A stretch of DNA of 4,786 nucleotides from a virus (taxonomy: Duplodnaviria; Heunggongvirae; Uroviricota; Caudoviricetes), in IMG/VR virus record IMGVR_UViG_2565956721_000003, one strand, 5' to 3'. The notes beneath the pieces are model-generated. The model searched no databases. It was not told where the DNA came from and was given only the letters and a program-made list of their open reading frames with translations. Shown here one piece after another: positions 1 to 4,786 of this stretch. Made by a program: the position numbers and the translations under genes. How positions within the stretch are numbered: the first letter of the stretch is position 1; every line of letters starts with the position of its first letter.

Positions 1-555
1 AAGCAGAAAAAGCTTATTATGCTTCCATCGGAAACGATGATCTGGCAGCCTGAGTTCACAGATAAAACACTCTCCAGGAAACCCGGGGCGGTTCATTAGA
101 TGCTTTTTGCTGACTAGCATATTTACAGCATCACGAAGCGGAGTCCTGTCATCAACAGATGTTTTCTTCCGTGCATTTGCTGCCTCTCCCTTTGTCCAGT
201 AGTCATGCAGCACAGTAAAGCATTCTTCCTGGTACTGAATCAGTTTATCGCGGATGTCAGCACGAACTTTCTCAGGGTTGATGCTGAACAGCCATCCATT
301 TAACTTCTTCAAAGGAAGGCAGAGTAGCTTACGAAGCTTACCATCAGCGGCAACCATGTTCATATGAACACAGTTGAATTTGCTAATCTGCTTCATGAGT
401 TTTGTTTGCTGCGTTGACCAGCTCATTCCGAGGTTTTCAACGATTGGCTTCATCGCAACATATGCAACTCCGGCAGCCATGGCGGTGATAATTTGCTGAC
501 CGTTGAATGGCACGTAAGAGGTGTTCACTGCTTCTAAAATTGCTATACTATTCAT
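1..555 (-). CDS. ant: Phage antirepressor Ant (AntA-type N-terminal domain); 5' portion only, gene continues past the window start
   Basis: Minus-strand frame is open from the ATG at 555-553 to position 1 (185 codons, no stop), translated by hand as [60 protein letters not shown]...[20 protein letters not shown] lies about 10 nt upstream of the ATG. The N-terminus matches my recollection of P22 Ant and AntA-domain antirepressors, and the gene sits downstream of an arc-like gene as in P22 immI. Not in the ORF track because it runs off the window edge. Confidence 0.8.
541..549 (+). promoter_or_regulatory. Candidate extended -10 promoter (TGcTATACT) firing antisense to the ant start; possible Psar analogue
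   Basis: Plus strand 541-549 reads TGCTATACT, a TGn + TATAAT-like hexamer with one mismatch. No good -35 was found. A start about 7 nt downstream would fall at about 556, opposite the ant ribosome-binding site. Confidence 0.3.
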
Positions 556-637
556 GTTGGTTTTTCTCCACGGATTTACCGACAACCGAAGCCCTGACTG
601 TTCCAGCAGTTGGGGCTTCACTGTTTTGATTTCTTTG
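556..637 (+). ncRNA. Candidate small antisense RNA (sar-like) complementary to the ant ribosome-binding site
   Basis: A candidate promoter at 541-549 and a plus-strand hairpin with T-run at 588-637 bracket a roughly 70-80 nt transcript antisense to the ant Shine-Dalgarno and start codon. In phage P22 a 68-69 nt antisense sar RNA from the arc-ant intercistronic region is established. Inference from sequence signals only. Confidence 0.35.
588..637 (+). terminator. Plus-strand intrinsic terminator-like hairpin followed by a T-rich tract
   Basis: GAAGCCC (588-594) pairs with GGGCTTC (613-619), with possible inner CTG/CAG pairs, followed by ACTGTTTTGATTTCTTTG (620-637). On the minus strand the same hairpin is not followed by a T-run, so the signal is orientation-specific. 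Confidence 0.4.
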
Positions 638-787
638 CCGCATCAAGCATCACTTCTGAAAACGTGCGCTTGCCACTGAATACTCTTTCTCTTCTCAATT
701 TTTCGTTCGTGCCAAATGATTCGCCATGAACAAAATTTGGTCTTAAAATGGTAATCGCAATCTCTTTGACTACTGCATCCAAGCGAA

Positions 788-940
788 TCACACCGTTACC
801 CCCTCTCTCTTCAGGCTGTCTATCAGGCGCTTGATAACCTCTGAGTTAAACGACCTGCACTCTTCCTTTGCCCTGCTACCGATAGCATCCTTTAACGACT
901 GCGGCATCCTTACCAAAATCTTACTTATTTCTTTCTCCAT
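788..940 (-). CDS. arc: Arc-like ribbon-helix-helix repressor (50 aa)
   Basis: Within track ORF 788..976 the likely start is the internal ATG at 940-938, preceded by GGAGGG with 5-nt spacing. Product MEKEISKILVRMPQSLKDAIGSRAKEECRSFNSEVIKRLIDSLKREGVTV has the size and the 'xxRSxNSE' core of P22 Arc (NGRSVNSE in P22) and lies immediately upstream of ant. Confidence 0.8.
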   Translation of the reverse strand: MEKEISKILVRMPQSLKDAIGSRAKEECRSFNSEVIKRLIDSLKREGVTV

Positions 941-976
941 GTTACCCTCCACGCAAACAACTCTTTTCGAATACAA

Positions 977-1041
977 AAGATAGCAAAGTGAGTATATCTA
1001 GTCAAAATTTTTTTGCATACACTTTGCTATCAAATTGAATA
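977..1041. promoter_or_regulatory. Divergent arc/ant (Pant-like) and mnt (Pmnt-like) promoter region with a perfect 12-bp inverted repeat, candidate operators
   Basis: Minus strand: TTGACT (complement of 1000-1005), 17-bp spacer, TATCTT (complement of 977-982), a good sigma70 match about 35 nt upstream of arc. Plus strand: weaker TTTGCA/TTGCAT (1012-1018) and TTGAAT (1035-1040) upstream of mnt. GATAGCAAAGTG (979-990) and CACTTTGCTATC (1020-1031) are exact reverse complements 29 bp apart; one half overlaps the Pant -10 and the other lies in the Pmnt spacer. Confidence 0.5.
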
Positions 1042-1054
1042 CCAAAGGTGTTAT

Positions 1055-1303
1055 ATGGCAAAGGGTGTGTCAATTTCTCCAACTACGGTAAGAATCCCTG
1101 AATCTTTACGCGAGGCTCTTGCTGTCAGAGCATCAAAAAATGGTCGCTCTGTTAACTCCGAGATCGTCATGATTTTGCAAGCCGCGATTGATGAAGATAG
1201 GTCGCCAAAGTCAGTTGAGTCATTTGCTCAGCAAGAAGCTGATAAATTCAAAGAGGCGCTACTTGAGACGCTAAAGACCATGTATGCTAAGGATGAAAAA
1301 TAA
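1055..1303 (+). CDS. mnt: Mnt-like ribbon-helix-helix repressor (82 aa)
   Basis: Within track ORF 1013..1303 the likely start is the ATG at 1055, with AAGGTG 4-5 nt upstream. Product MAKGVSISPTTVRIPESLREALAVRASKNGRSVNSEIVMILQAAIDEDRSPKSVESFAQQEADKFKEALLETLKTMYAKDEK matches P22 Mnt in length (82 aa), in the NGRSxNSE motif and in the C-terminal TLKxxYxK segment. It is divergent from arc as in P22 immI. Confidence 0.8.
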   Translation: MAKGVSISPTTVRIPESLREALAVRASKNGRSVNSEIVMILQAAIDEDRSPKSVESFAQQEADKFKEALLETLKTMYAKDEK

Positions 1304-1862: not shown

Positions 1863-1887
1863 AAAAAACCCACCTGACGGTGGGTTT
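1863..1887. terminator. Bidirectional intrinsic terminator between the convergent protease gene and the toxin operon
   Basis: AAAAAA (1863-1868), CCCACC (1869-1874), loop TGAC, GGTGGG (1879-1884), TTT (1885-1887). On the minus strand the stem is followed by six T, so termination is strongest for the minus-strand operon ending at 1886; on the plus strand only three T follow. Confidence 0.6.
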
Positions 1888-2335
1888 AGTCAAACATAGT
1901 GTTTCTAAAGTCTCTCGCATACCCTGCTAACACTCTCATTCTATTATGATTGTTAGCAGACATGTGAGCTACAGGATGAAAAAGAGCAATCAATGAATAC
2001 CTGTTCTCATCAAAAAGATTTTGTGCATAAACGAGAGCGGTATTGGATGTTTTATGCCACTGCAACTTTTGCGGTGTGCTGATATCTGTGCCATTTTTTA
2101 TTGGCTCAAATTTATTTTCACCAATTGCTAAATGAAGGTGCATAAGGCCTGCATCTTCAATATCAGGAGGTCGATGATAAGAGGTGTCTCTGCCAAAATA
2201 GCTGGGCAACGTTCCCGTAGACTTGTAGATGATAAAATCATCTACAAGTGTTTGTTTTAAATCAGGAAACTCAACAAAAACCGGGGAGAAAAAATAGTCA
2301 AAACTATCCTGATTATATTCCACGGTTACTTGCAT
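1886..2335 (-). CDS. YafO-family toxin (ribosome-dependent mRNA interferase family), 149 aa
   Basis: Track ORF 1886..2335. FIIYKSTGTLPSYFGRDTSYHRP, LMHLHLAIGENKFEP and ALVYAQNLFDENRYSLIALFHPVAHMSANNHNRMRVLAGYARDFR align with E. coli YafO as I recall it (FISYKRDGVLPDIFGRDALYDDS, VAHIHLANENNPFP, HLVYCQGAFDEQAWLLIAILKPEPHKLARDNNQMHKIGKMAEAFR). The ATG at 2335 is 8 nt after the upstream gene's stop, with GAGG overlapping that stop. Confidence 0.8.
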   Translation of the reverse strand: MQVTVEYNQDSFDYFFSPVFVEFPDLKQTLVDDFIIYKSTGTLPSYFGRDTSYHRPPDIEDAGLMHLHLAIGENKFEPIKNGTDISTPQKLQWHKTSNTALVYAQNLFDENRYSLIALFHPVAHMSANNHNRMRVLAGYARDFRNTMFD

Positions 2336-2343
2336 GTTTTACC

Positions 2344-2910
2344 TCAGTGGAAGTTACCAGAGTGAAACACACGAGTCCCGTGCTCAGCAAGCGCACGCAA
2401 ACCAGCCATATCTACGGAACTATCAAAAACAACCGGAACACATGAGCGTTGTTTAATAAGACTATTCAGGTTGGTTACGGCAGATCTGGCATCAGCAACA
2501 ACGATATAGATATCTCTTGCGATCTCTTTAAAATCAGCAGAAGCTTCTTTGAATACCGATTTCATTGCCCCTTCAAGTCCTCTCAATTGATGCTCTATCA
2601 ATCGAGACTTTTCTGGTTCAATGATAGACAACACATTGTCTACATTCTCATCGGTAGCGTTTGCAAGAACACGATAAGCGTATTTCAGCATTCGAGACAA
2701 TTCTTTAATCGAAGACACCGCCTCATGAAGCTCATCATTAGCCCGTTCACTGCTGAATGAGGATTGATGGTAAGCGTGCTGAACGTTATCAGTAACAACC
2801 ACCTCACAACTGAACGCAGAAGCTTGCTGTAATAGCAAACCTATTGCGACTCCAGCTTTGGCAGCGTTCAAGCTAAACATTTCATCAATCCCATTAGTCT
2901 CATTGCTCAT
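2344..2910 (-). CDS. Hypothetical 188-aa protein encoded immediately upstream of, and coupled to, the YafO-like toxin gene; candidate atypical antitoxin or partner
   Basis: Track ORF 2344..2940; preferred start is the ATG at 2910-2908, preceded by AAGGAGG with 5-nt spacing (the track's Met at 2940 is a TTG with no RBS). Product MSNETNGIDEMFSLNAAKAGVAIGLLLQQ...GLRALAEHGTRVFHSGNFH has no recognisable RHH or HTH N-terminus and no family I can name. It is roughly twice the size of the known YafO partner YafN (97 aa). Confidence 0.7.
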   Translation of the reverse strand: MSNETNGIDEMFSLNAAKAGVAIGLLLQQASAFSCEVVVTDNVQHAYHQSSFSSERANDELHEAVSSIKELSRMLKYAYRVLANATDENVDNVLSIIEPEKSRLIEHQLRGLEGAMKSVFKEASADFKEIARDIYIVVADARSAVTNLNSLIKQRSCVPVVFDSSVDMAGLRALAEHGTRVFHSGNFH

Positions 2911-2977
2911 ACAAACCTCCTTCTTATCGGAGATTATCAATAGCTATGCATCCATTGAATACACGCTATGCGCAATA

Positions 2978-3453: not shown

Positions 3454-4691
3454 TTATTGAGCTTCTTTTTGTGATGCCTGTGCGACTCTGGTGAGCGATT
3501 GTGTGACCGTACTGATCGCTCTGTCATATGCTGTGCTACCTTTTGGCGTATTTGCCAGACGTAACAAGGCATTTCGTATAACAGGGCTTTCGTATGCCTT
3601 CGCAGCTCCTCCTACGACACCAGCAGCAGGAACAACAAACGCAGCCGTTTTTAGCATCCCCGCTAATACTGCTGCGTTTATGATGCCACCACCAACTAAC
3701 AATCCATAAAGCTGCTGACCATTTAAGTTTTGAACGTTCGCTTTTGCCGCGTGTCTTGTATCGTTGAGGTATTTAATAACGCCGTCCAGTTCCTTTCCAT
3801 GTACGCCTTTAAAGAAAGTTGCTGATTGCTTCCTGTTCCGGTGTAACGCATTAATAAACTTTTCAACACTAATATTTCCAGACGGATCAGTCGCCTTATC
3901 TACAGCATTCTGAACTATGGCTGCTCGTGCGTTTTGCCTACCATTGTCATCCAGAAGCCTGTAAAGCTGAGAACGTTCTGATGGGTTTTGGCTAAAAACG
4001 AGTTTTGTTACATCCTCAGGTGTAGCCTTGCCGCTGGCTATTGCCTTTTGAACGCGCGTTCTTCCCATCATGTCATTGAATCTAGCCCATGAGCGATCAA
4101 CCCTAGACATATTGGCAGCTTCTTCTGAGCCTAGTTTTTGGGATACTGCTTTTTTCATATCCGCTGTATATGCCTTGTAGACAATATCGCTGGCTTTCTG
4201 GAGCGTGTCTTTATCAACAGTCTCGTTTGAATTCATGAACCGCTTTCGAAGGTCAGTTCTGTTTTCTCTCGCCAGACGCAGGTCATTGGGTCCGCTGGTG
4301 ATATCGTCTTTAAATTGCTGCAAGACTTTTACCGCGGCTCTATCCTGAGATTTGCCCGGGCGGCTTAACACGGCAATCTGATTGTCGATAGCTTTTACCG
4401 TGTTTGAGAGATCGACAGGGGTATCCCCCATAGCGTCAATTATGCGGTTATATCGCTTTCCTGCTGCCTCAATGAATTTTTGTTGCCCTTTAGTCGCAGA
4501 TTCATAAAGCTGTTTATCAGAAATGCCACCCAGACCATCGCTAAATGTTCTGACTAAATTTTCTCGTGCTTGTTGTTGATTCAGCCGATTCTTACCGGTT
4601 CCAAAAAAAGGAACTCTTTCGCCTAATGTCTGAGCCTGACTCTGCATAAAGGTTTTATCTTTCAGCGTGTCACTGGTCATTAACGGCAGGT
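3454..4691 (-). CDS. Phage late protein, probable DNA ejection/injection protein (P22 gp16-like by position), 3' portion; 5' end interrupted by an IS element
   Basis: Track ORF 3454..4680 (408 aa). The frame stays open upstream of the ATG at 4680 through the IS boundary and stops only at 4717-4719 inside IS sequence, so the native N-terminus is missing. A glycine-rich hydrophobic segment (GLLVGGGIINAAVLAGMLKTAAFVVPAAGVVGGAAKA) sits near the C-terminus. Assignment to gp16 rests on synteny with P22 (gene 16 lies next to the sieA/mnt side of immI) and on the size deficit (about 410 of roughly 600 aa). Confidence 0.5.
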
Positions 4692-4786
4692 TGAACCGCC
4701 CCGGGAATCCTGGAGACTAAACTTCCTGAGAAAGAGGTAAACAGGATGACTAAAAATACTCGTTTTTCCCCCGAAGTCCGTCAACG
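4692..4786 (+). mobile_element. IS3-family insertion sequence (IS629/IS1203-like), left terminal inverted repeat and start of orfA; continues beyond window
   Basis: TGAACCGCCCCGGGAATCCTGGAGACTAAAC... from 4692 matches the IS3-family left end as I recall it (TGA terminus), followed by AGAGG and the ATG at 4746. Confidence 0.65.
4746..4786 (+). CDS. IS3-family transposase OrfA, N-terminal 13 codons only
   Basis: Translation MTKNTRFSPEVRQ(R) matches the OrfA N-terminus of IS629/IS1203-type elements from memory. AGAGG lies upstream of the ATG. Confidence 0.65.
   Translation, partial: MTKNTRFSPEVRQ

What the first reader, a model, noticed from the sequence alone, without database searches (positions are those of the whole stretch)
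979..1031. Perfect 12-bp inverted repeat placed on both divergent immunity promoters
Seen in sequence: GATAGCAAAGTG (979-990) and CACTTTGCTATC (1020-1031) are exact reverse complements separated by 29 bp. One arm overlaps the -10 of the strong minus-strand promoter for arc-ant and the other lies in the spacer of the candidate mnt promoter. Established knowledge: in P22, Arc and Mnt each bind an operator in this interval to control Pant and Pmnt. Inference: these arms are the operator half-sites of this phage's Arc-like and/or Mnt-like repressors, with a sequence different from P22, which implies a different immunity specificity.
Basis: partly seen in the sequence, partly recalled or inferred. 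Interest (0 to 1): 0.4.

Follow-up and report, generated by a model that had tools for sequence, protein, structure and literature searches.

The report
Paired repressor sites in phage immI
The 12-base inverted repeat is real and lies in a strongly conserved control region between two divergent small repressor genes of a P22-like prophage, where it most likely provides two binding sites for one of those repressors; this is an ordinary kind of element laid out differently from the textbook phage P22.

Summary
GATAGCAAAGTG (979-990) and CACTTTGCTATC (1020-1031) are exact reverse complements, 29 nt apart. No shuffle of the 114-bp intergenic region out of 5000 reached 12 nt.

The window is the immI ("ant moron") region of a P22-like E. 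coli prophage. It holds ant (cut by an IS), sar RNA, an Arc-like gene and a divergent Mnt-like gene.

The left arm covers the spacer and the first four bases of the -10 of the arc-ant promoter. It sits at the same offset as the promoter-proximal half of P22 Oarc. The right arm lies in about 27 bp that P22 lacks, upstream of the -35 and an A4T7 tract.

An 80-bp block holding both arms is 94% identical between E. coli and Serratia. The flanking arc and mnt genes are 65% and 72% identical. About 15 divergent immI classes keep an arm pair at the same offsets, and the arm sequences change together.

I conclude these are operator elements for a ribbon-helix-helix repressor, one per divergent promoter side, not two half-sites of one operator. 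Specific contrasts lean towards the Mnt-like protein, but the statistics do not separate Mnt from Arc. The mnt promoter is unresolved. Perfect 12/12 symmetry is incidental: 27 of 35 close relatives have 11/12. This is a new architectural variant of a known kind, of modest interest.

The parts
979..990 (.). Left arm, GATAGCAAAGTG. On the minus strand it reads CACTTTGC-TATC, which is the promoter-proximal part of the Pant spacer, the TG of an extended -10, and the first four bases of the -10 hexamer.
   Evidence: It sits at the same offset from GTCAA as P22 TATAGTAGAGTG, the proximal half of Oarc, and is 9/12 identical to it. It is 12/12 identical in Serratia L004.
1020..1031 (.). Right arm, CACTTTGCTATC. 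It lies upstream of the Pant -35 and A/T tract, in about 27 bp absent from P22. With the common C1027A allele it forms the perfect palindrome TTTGATATCAAA (1023-1034).
   Evidence: It is 11/12 identical in Serratia.
991..1019 (.). Central 29 bp between the arms. It holds the Pant -35 (TTGACT, 1005-1000, minus strand) and an A4T7 tract (1004-1014) that could act as an UP element. It is the most conserved piece across immI classes.
   Evidence: It is 90% identical to phage 611R6 and 93% identical to Serratia. GTCAAAATTTTTTTG recurs across classes.
977..1005 (-). Homologue of the arc-ant promoter Pant: TTGACT, 17 nt, TATCTT, with TG upstream.
   Evidence: It aligns base by base to P22 TTGACAtgatagaagcactctacTATATT. 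Equivalent hits are found in 611R6 and PhiR12_1.
969..1048 (.). Footprint-conserved regulatory block, bounded by the direct repeats GAATACAAAAG (969-979) and GAATACCAAAG (1037-1047).
   Evidence: family D2; 75/80 identical between E. coli and Serratia, against 65% for the arc CDS, 54% for the arc leader and 72% for the mnt CDS.
1031..1050 (+). Two further degenerate core-like motifs, CAAATTG (1031-1037) and CAAAGGTG (1043-1050). They lie about 11 and 23 bp to the right of the right-arm core CACTTTG (1020-1026). Phage 611R6 has CACTGTG, CAATGTG and CACGGTG at 0, +11 and +23.
   Evidence: Read from the sequences. This is inference and was not tested statistically.
1055..1068 (+). Third, degenerate copy of the arm (ATGGCAAAGGGTGT) over the mnt start codon. 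It is 80% complementary to 1016-1030.
   Evidence: D1, I1. Bases 1055-1067 are 13/13 identical in Serratia although the rest of mnt is 72% identical. The predicted RNA hairpin has -20.1 kcal/mol, z = -3.3.
1055..1303 (+). Mnt-like ribbon-helix-helix repressor gene (82 aa). It includes a C-terminal region alignable to the C-terminal region of P22 Mnt, which I recall as its tetramerisation domain.
   Evidence: Pfam Arc, 9.5e-11. 36% identical to P22 Mnt over 74 aa. Best PDB match is 1mnt.
791..940 (-). Arc-like ribbon-helix-helix repressor gene (50 aa).
   Evidence: Pfam Arc, 5.1e-12. 39% identical to P22 Arc.
556..622 (+). sar antisense RNA gene, opposite the ant ribosome-binding region.
   Evidence: Rfam RF00262, 83.9 bits, E = 2.9e-17.
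98..555 (-). 5' part of the antirepressor gene ant, interrupted by an IS3-family element end at about 1-97.
   Evidence: Pfam P22_AR_N, 9.1e-46. Translation. The intact 903-bp gene is present in E. coli MS7163.

Best explanation
The two arms are two copies of the recognition element of a ribbon-helix-helix repressor of this immI region. They are placed symmetrically on either side of the -35 hexamer and A/T tract of the arc-ant promoter.

Shown:
- The repeat exists and is far beyond chance locally.
- The left arm occupies the spacer and extended -10 of the Pant homologue.
- The block is under strong purifying selection.
- The same two-site layout, at identical offsets, recurs in about 15 divergent immI classes, with arm sequences that change together.

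Inferred:
- A repressor bound at the left arm excludes RNA polymerase from Pant and so shuts off arc and ant.
- The same protein bound at the right arm, and at weaker neighbouring copies reaching the mnt ribosome-binding site and start codon, controls mnt expression (autoregulation, or Arc-type shut-off of Pmnt).
- The arms are separate sites, not half-sites of one operator, because they are 41 bp apart.
- I lean to the Mnt-like protein as the binder (about 50-55%), then both proteins (about 15-20%), then the Arc-like protein alone (about 15-20%).
- The arm sequence differs from P22 Omnt and Oarc, so the specificity differs from P22.
For: - Repeat and chance.
- Promoter overlap and P22 alignment.
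- Phylogenetic footprint: block 969-1048 is 94% identical between E. coli and Serratia, against 65% and 72% for the flanking genes.
- Against 611R6, the central 29 bp are 90% identical but the arm regions about 60%, and both arms carry the same substitutions: position 5 G to T and position 8 A to C.
- Across 15 classes, within-class arm complementarity averages 8.7/12 against 7.1/12 between classes, permutation p = 1e-4.
- The leaning to Mnt rests on four points. Classes B, C, E, F and K have five unrelated Arc N-terminal beta-strand regions but the same PY-type Mnt N-terminus, and all have GATATCA-type arms. In those classes the GTGATATCAC-type palindrome also occurs at the P22-Omnt position. 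L036-38 have the window's Mnt N-terminal half joined to a 611R6-type C-terminal half, and keep window-type arms. The core of P22 Omnt is itself CAC-G-GTG.
- Specificity of Arc and Mnt is set by N-terminal residues (Knight and Sauer 1989, as cited in PMC3413123).
Against: - No binding data exist for this or any non-P22 ant moron. Villafane et al. 2008 (PMC2629481) state that only the P22 version has been studied.
- Mantel tests do not favour Mnt. With all 15 classes, arms against the Arc N-terminus give r = 0.44 (p = 2e-4) and against the Mnt N-terminus r = 0.25 (p = 0.02). Restricted to the 7 classes where Arc and Mnt N-termini differ, the values are r = 0.355 (p = 0.08) for Mnt and r = 0.30 (p = 0.10) for Arc.
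- The left arm is positionally homologous to half of P22 Oarc, 9/12 identical. By descent this favours Arc.
- Part of the arm is also a promoter element: TGnTATC of the extended -10. Some of its conservation, and the polymorphism at arm position 5 (the 'n'), may reflect promoter constraints and not protein contacts.
- The arm itself has no internal dyad symmetry.
- The mnt promoter could not be located, so the regulatory effect of the right arm is conjecture.
Confidence: 0.8

Rival explanations
1. The arms are the operator of the Arc-like protein, duplicated in inverted orientation. In P22 one Oarc sits in the shared spacer of the overlapping promoters Pant and Pmnt. Here the promoters have been pushed apart by about 27 bp, so each gets its own copy. 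The Mnt-like protein binds elsewhere.
For: - The left arm is at the exact offset of the promoter-proximal half of P22 Oarc and is 9/12 identical to it.
- The global Mantel correlation of the arms is higher with the Arc N-terminus (r = 0.44) than with the Mnt N-terminus (r = 0.25).
- The logic matches P22, where, as I recall, Arc represses both promoters.
Against: - The TAGA boxes contacted by P22 Arc are not kept: CAAA and TATA stand in their places (sequences). Four of the 9 matches are -10 hexamer bases.
- The window and 611R6 have essentially the same Arc N-terminal beta-strand region (S[K/R]ILVRMPQSL), yet both arms differ at the same positions.
- Five classes with unrelated Arc N-terminal beta-strand regions share GATATCA-type arms.
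- The candidate Omnt-like 17-mer at the Pant start (963-979) is not conserved in Serratia. That leaves no obvious separate Mnt site.
Confidence: 0.18
2. The symmetry mainly reflects two back-to-back promoter modules, each with an extended -10. These are TGcTATCTT for Pant on the minus strand and TGcTATCAA for a weak Pmnt on the plus strand. The repeat would then be a by-product of promoter duplication and not a repressor site.
For: - Both arms end in TG-n-TATC, followed by TT or AA. The scan flags TG upstream of the Pant -10.
- The polymorphic arm position 5 (983 and 1027) is the unconstrained 'n' of TGn in both arms.
Against: - TATCAA lacks the conserved final T and fails the scan. In other classes the equivalent hexamers (TGCTAA, TGCCAA, TAGAAA) are poor -10 elements.
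- The inner seven bases (CACTTTG / CAC-N-GTG) are conserved at fixed offsets in all classes, and promoter elements do not explain that.
- This reading is compatible with operator function and does not exclude it.
Confidence: 0.1
3. The repeat acts as an RNA hairpin. One version is a 12-bp stem with a 29-nt loop followed by UUUUGUAUU on the minus strand, acting on read-through late transcripts. The other is a pairing of the right arm with 1055-1069 in the mnt leader that hides the AUG.
For: - The minus-strand fold is -16.2 kcal/mol, z = -2.9.
- The plus-strand leader fold is -20.1 kcal/mol, z = -3.3, and pairs the AUG.
- 1055-1067 is 13/13 conserved in Serratia.
Against: - The left arm overlaps the -10 and spacer of Pant, upstream of its predicted start, so it would not be in arc mRNA. 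It would also lie upstream of any candidate mnt start.
- A 29-nt loop is not terminator-like, and the scan finds no terminator.
- A strong terminator-like hairpin at about 1866-1886 precedes this region for minus-strand transcripts.
- In other classes the arms are self-palindromic cores with 5-10 of 12 complementarity, and leader hairpins that hide the ribosome-binding site are not conserved.
Confidence: 0.05
4. The match is a chance coincidence or a neutral duplication remnant with no function.
For: Perfect 12/12 symmetry is present in only 8 of 35 close relatives.
Against: None of 5000 local shuffles reaches 12 nt. The block is 94% conserved between E. coli and Serratia against 65-72% for the flanking genes. 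The positions are conserved in about 15 classes.
Confidence: 0.03

Closest known systems
Bacteriophage P22 immI region (mnt / Pmnt-Pant / arc / sar / ant) with operators Oarc and Omnt
   Same: - The gene order and orientation are the same, with homologous Arc, Mnt and Ant proteins and sar RNA.
- The Pant homologue aligns base by base, with a repressor-site-like element in its spacer.
- It has the same place in the genome, between the DNA-ejection genes and the tailspike gene.
   Different: - About 27 extra bp (an A4T7 tract plus the right arm) lie between the Pant -35 and mnt.
- A second copy of the spacer element lies upstream of the -35. P22 has nothing there (0-1 of 12 complementarity).
- No P22-type overlapping Pmnt is detected.
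- There is no conserved 17-bp Omnt-type palindrome at the Pant start.
- The TAGA boxes of Oarc are absent, and the N-terminal recognition residues of both proteins differ.
- An extra 57-aa ORF lies between arc and ant, and a ClpP-like gene follows mnt.
Ribbon-helix-helix repressors that bind arrays of short sites around their own promoters (MetJ met-boxes, ParG, CopG, omega)
   Same: Short repeated motifs occur in direct and inverted orientation. Some are spaced about one helical turn apart: the motifs at 1020, 1031 and 1043 here, and 0, +11 and +23 in 611R6. They overlap promoter elements (the description of RHH site organisation is from PMC3413123).
   Different: The two best copies are 41 bp apart and flank a -35 hexamer; they are not contiguous. 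Cooperative array binding is conjecture here.
'Ant moron' variants of P22-like phages (Villafane et al. 2008, PMC2629481), such as epsilon34, CUS-3, Emek, 611R6 and phiv205-1
   Same: This locus is one of those variants. It is 98.6% identical to phage phiv205-1 across 560-1320.
   Different: In the papers found in the held library, operators are described for none of these variants except by similarity to P22. The two-site layout described here is not annotated in any record I fetched.

Membership tests
P22-type immI (ant moron) regulatory region | Arc-family RHH gene directly upstream of ant, on the same strand | tested here: met
   Pfam Arc 5.1e-12 for 940..791(-). ant matches P22_AR_N at 9.1e-46. 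39% identical to P22 Arc.
P22-type immI (ant moron) regulatory region | Divergently transcribed Mnt homologue: an RHH domain plus a C-terminal oligomerisation region | tested here: met
   36% identical to P22 Mnt over residues 11-79, including the C-terminal part. Best PDB match is 1mnt. Tetramer formation itself was not tested.
P22-type immI (ant moron) regulatory region | sar antisense RNA opposite the ant ribosome-binding site | tested here: met
   Rfam RF00262, 83.9 bits against a gathering score of 43, at 556-622(+).
P22-type immI (ant moron) regulatory region | Strong Pant promoter with a repressor operator between -35 and -10 | tested here: inconclusive
   The promoter-like site is found and aligns to P22 Pant. 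The left arm occupies the spacer and -10. Protein binding cannot be tested with these tools.
P22-type immI (ant moron) regulatory region | Pmnt overlapping Pant face to face, so that one Oarc controls both | tested here: not met
   The scan finds Pmnt in P22 but no plus-strand promoter in the window. The distance from the mnt ATG to the Pant -35 is 49 bp against 22 bp in P22.
P22-type immI (ant moron) regulatory region | 17-bp dyad-symmetric Omnt at the Pant start site | tested here: not met
   The only candidate is CTTTTCGAATACAAAAG (963-979), with 6 of 8 symmetric pairs. Its left half is not conserved in Serratia.
   The arm centres are 41 bp apart, and the cores at 987 and 1023 are 36 bp apart. 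The reference spacing is from my recollection of the P22 Arc-operator structure.
Functional cis-regulatory element (phylogenetic footprint) | Higher conservation than the flanking coding DNA, and conserved position in diverged homologues | tested here: met
   94% against 65% and 72%. The offsets are the same in about 15 classes, and arm co-variation has p = 1e-4.
Intrinsic terminator or regulatory RNA hairpin | G+C-rich stem, short loop, U tract, and location within a transcript | tested here: not met
   No terminator-like site is found. The loop is 29 nt. The left arm overlaps the -10 and spacer of Pant, upstream of its predicted start. The fold z-score is -2.9 only.

The most novel reading that the evidence does not exclude
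This immI family may use a switch design unlike P22. One operator sequence would be placed on both sides of the Pant -35 and A-tract, and repeated towards mnt. It would be read by both RHH paralogues, since in many classes Arc and Mnt have near-identical N-termini. Alternatively, a Mnt tetramer or higher oligomer could bridge the two arms across the intrinsically bent A4T7 tract and trap the -35 in a small repression complex. Competition between a dimeric and a tetrameric reader of the same sites, not two distinct operators, would then set ant expression.
Probability: 0.12. Interest if true: 0.55.

Novelty: new variant of a known kind. Interest (0 to 1): 0.3.

Why it matters
Arc and Mnt are textbook models for DNA recognition by beta-sheets, yet only the P22 operators have been studied (PMC2629481). 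This locus and its relatives offer a natural series of Arc/Mnt-type proteins with altered N-terminal recognition residues, matched to altered sites at fixed positions. That series could be used to relate ribbon sequence to DNA sequence.

In practice, the specificity of the Mnt-like repressor decides whether a resident prophage can silence the antirepressor of an incoming relative. Distinct operator classes therefore imply distinct secondary-immunity groups among E. coli, Salmonella and Serratia P22-like prophages.

The finding itself is unsurprising for a specialist: repressor sites between divergent repressor genes.

Tried and rejected
- Mantel and partial Mantel tests of arm similarity against Arc or Mnt N-terminal similarity. 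The aim was to assign the binding protein. The global test favoured Arc, but in 7 of 15 classes Arc and Mnt N-termini are near-identical. The restricted test (n = 7) was non-significant for both. The result is reported but not used as proof.
- Searching viral contigs for the 15-mer CACTTTGMTATCAAA, to find the site in other contexts. It returned more than 120 hits, about the number I estimate by chance in a collection that size, so it was uninformative.
- Searching with the Arc-like protein for new Arc/Mnt combinations. This Arc type occurs only with the two Mnt types already seen, so no further contrast was gained.
- Phage Kapi1, whose mnt is reported as not expressed in lysogens (PMC12922286). 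Its arc-mnt gap is only 32 bp, a different layout, so it is not comparable.
- Locating Pmnt. None passes the scan. Only class C (L039) shows P22-like plus-strand hits.
- Terminator or RNA hairpin reading: rejected as the main explanation.
- Knight and Sauer 1989 (PMC286564) could not be read. The statements on Arc/Mnt N-terminal specificity rest on its citation in PMC3413123 and on my own knowledge.

Full report
**Observation**

GATAGCAAAGTG (979-990) and CACTTTGCTATC (1020-1031) are exact reverse complements separated by 29 nt. The repeat cannot be extended at either end. A perfect inverted repeat of at least 12 nt with a gap of at most 60 appears in 3 of 300 dinucleotide-preserving shuffles of the whole window. 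It appears in none of 5000 shuffles of the 114-bp intergenic region.

**Setting**

The window is the "ant moron" (immI) segment of a P22-like prophage of E. coli. 43 complete E. coli genomes hold at least 80% of it, and it is 98.6% identical to phage phiv205-1 over 560-1320.

On the minus strand it carries:
- a P22 gp16-family DNA-ejection (injection) gene (4680..3454; annotation);
- a 188-aa gene and a YafO-toxin-like gene;
- an Arc-like gene (940..791);
- a 57-aa ORF;
- the 5' part of ant (555..about 98).

On the plus strand it carries a Mnt-like gene (1055-1303), a ClpP-like gene and sar RNA (556-622). IS3-family element ends cut the window at about 1-97 and from 4680 onwards.

The Mnt-like protein aligns to P22 Mnt over residues 11-79, including the C-terminal region (36% identity). 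Its best solved relative is 1mnt. The Arc-like protein is 39% identical to P22 Arc.

**Anatomy**

The only sigma-70-like site in 850-1150 is on the minus strand: TTGACT (1005-1000), 17 nt, TATCTT (982-977), preceded by TG. It aligns base for base with P22 Pant, TTGACAtgatagaagcactctacTATATT.

The left arm therefore covers the promoter-proximal eight bases of the spacer and the first four bases of the -10. At the same offset from GTCAA, P22 has TATAGTAGAGTG, the proximal half of Oarc, which is 9/12 identical. However, the TAGA boxes, which I recall as the bases P22 Arc contacts, are not kept, and four of the nine matches are -10 bases.

The right arm lies in DNA that P22 lacks. The mnt ATG is 49 bp from the Pant -35 here and 22 bp in P22. 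The extra DNA is an A4T7 tract followed by the right arm.

Both arms read CACTT-TG-c-TATC, followed by TT on the minus strand (the Pant -10) or AA on the plus strand. No plus-strand promoter passes the scan, although the same scan finds both promoters in P22. The mnt promoter is unresolved.

A third, degenerate copy (ATGGCAAAGGGTGT, 1055-1068) covers the mnt start codon. Two weaker core-like motifs follow the right arm at about 11 and 23 bp.

**Conservation**

Between the E. coli window and a Serratia marcescens contig (L004), the figures are:
- arc CDS: 65% identical;
- arc leader: 54%;
- mnt CDS: 72%;
- block 969-1048: 94% (75/80). Within it the left arm is 12/12, the central 29 bp are 27/29 and the right arm is 11/12;
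- 1055-1067: 13/13.

The block is bounded by the direct repeats GAATACAAAAG and GAATACCAAAG. This is a clear phylogenetic footprint.

Among 35 close relatives, 8 have 12/12 arms and 27 have 11/12. The usual variable base is arm position 5 (983 or 1027, G or T), which is symmetry-related in the two arms. With C1027A the right site becomes the perfect palindrome TTTGATATCAAA.

**Wider family**

Searches with the Mnt-like and Arc-like proteins gave about 15 distinct classes of arc-mnt intergenic regions. All except the P22 type, the CUS-3 type and a few other outlying loci share one layout: a 12-nt arm, 10 nt, GTCAA (the Pant -35, reverse complement), 14 nt of mostly A/T, then a 12-nt arm.

The inner seven bases are usually CAC-N-GTG, which is also the centre of P22 Omnt. 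In the window class they are CAAAGTG and CACTTTG. Outer bases vary by class (GATATC, CTACAC and others).

Arm complementarity averages 8.7/12 within classes and 7.1/12 between classes (permutation p = 1e-4). Against phage 611R6, the central 29 bp are 90% identical but the arm regions about 60%. Both arms carry the same changes, position 5 G to T and position 8 A to C.

**Which protein?**

Contrasts that favour the Mnt-like protein:
- The window and 611R6 have essentially the same Arc N-terminal beta-strand region (S[K/R]ILVRMPQSL) but different Mnt N-termini (MAKGVSISPTTVRIP against MTKVRDIAPYSVRMP). Their arms differ.
- Classes B, C, E, F and K have five unrelated Arc N-terminal beta-strand regions but the same PY-type Mnt N-terminus. 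All have GATATCA-type arms, and a GTGATATCAC-type palindrome also occurs at the position of P22 Omnt.
- L036-38 combine the window's Mnt N-terminal half with a 611R6-type C-terminal half and keep window-type arms.
- The window class lacks the N-terminal-arm arginine present in P22 Mnt and all other classes. It is also one of the few classes in which one GTG half of each core is changed.

Points against:
- The left arm descends from the Oarc position.
- The global Mantel correlation is higher with the Arc N-terminus (r = 0.44) than with the Mnt N-terminus (r = 0.25). This is partly because seven classes have Arc and Mnt with near-identical N-termini.
- The restricted test is non-significant for both (p = 0.08 and 0.10).

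I therefore commit to "operator elements of an RHH repressor" at about 0.8. I only lean to the Mnt-like protein as the binder.

**Mechanism proposed (inferred)**

Repressor bound at the left arm occludes the spacer and -10 of Pant and silences arc and ant. The same protein bound at the right arm, and at the weaker copies reaching the mnt ribosome-binding site and start codon, controls mnt.

The arms are 41 bp apart, so they are separate sites, not half-sites of one operator. Whether they cooperate across the A-tract is unknown.

**Rivals**

- An Arc-specific duplicated operator (0.18).
- Symmetry of two extended -10 promoter modules (0.10; compatible with operator function).
- An RNA hairpin (0.05). 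The folds are only moderately better than shuffles, and the left arm, overlapping the -10 and spacer of Pant, would not be in either immI transcript.
- Chance (0.03).

**Literature**

Villafane et al. [quoted passage not shown] No paper found in the held library describes operators for this class.

**Verdict**

This is a new architectural variant of a known kind. Interest is modest (0.3).

Noticed in passing
window 556-622 (+): A full-length sar antisense RNA gene (Rfam RF00262, 83.9 bits) lies opposite the start of ant. This layer of P22-type ant control is therefore retained.
   Followed up: yes
window 1-97 and 4680-4786: IS3-family (IS629-like) element ends flank the window. The left one truncates ant after about 152 codons and the right one abuts the start of the ejection-protein gene. 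The intact locus exists in E. coli MS7163 (L129).
   Followed up: partly
window ~1440 (within 1303-1840): A 2-bp deletion relative to MS7163 frameshifts the ClpP-like protease gene. That gene overlaps the mnt stop codon and appears to be co-transcribed with mnt. It is an intact 537-bp gene in MS7163 and phiv205-1.
   Followed up: yes
window 2221-2249: A perfect 13-nt inverted repeat with a 3-nt loop (ACTTGTAGATGAT aaa ATCATCTACAAGT) lies inside the YafO-toxin-like coding sequence. It is longer than any inverted repeat in 300 shuffles of the window. Its function is unknown.
   Followed up: no
window 618-791 (-): A 57-aa ORF lies between arc and ant. P22 lacks it, but it is annotated in phiv205-1, 611R6 and Emek (orf73). 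It overlaps the arc stop codon.
   Followed up: no
window 1886-2940 (-): A YafO-family toxin gene (Pfam 3.4e-22) is preceded by a 188-aa gene with no family match. This may be a toxin-antitoxin pair carried in the ant moron.
   Followed up: no
window 1864-1890: A G+C-rich hairpin (CCCACC tgac GGTGGG) is flanked by an A run and a T run. It looks like a bidirectional intrinsic terminator between the ClpP-like and YafO-like genes. The only Rfam match there is a weak one to the sroH 3' end (19.5 bits).
   Followed up: partly
L040, L045, L094, L103, L104, L114 (arc-mnt regions): In several immI classes the Arc-like and Mnt-like proteins of one phage have near-identical N-terminal recognition segments (for example MKVRDIAPLGIRIP and MKGARDISPLGIRIP). 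Three or four copies of one palindrome (CTACAC-N-GTGTAG) span the region. This suggests both repressors read the same sites, unlike P22.
   Followed up: partly
window 969-979 and 1037-1047: The direct repeats GAATACAAAAG and GAATACCAAAG bound the footprint-conserved block and are conserved in Serratia. Together with GTATAT (992) and GCATAC (1015) they give an ATAC/GTAT-like motif every 22-23 bp. The role is unknown; they could be sites for the second repressor.
   Followed up: partly
L046 (CUS-3), L078, L079: Some phages carry two tandem mnt-like genes of different classes. The second, 611R6-type gene has no matching operator nearby, so it may act in trans against antirepressor genes of other phages.
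   Followed up: no
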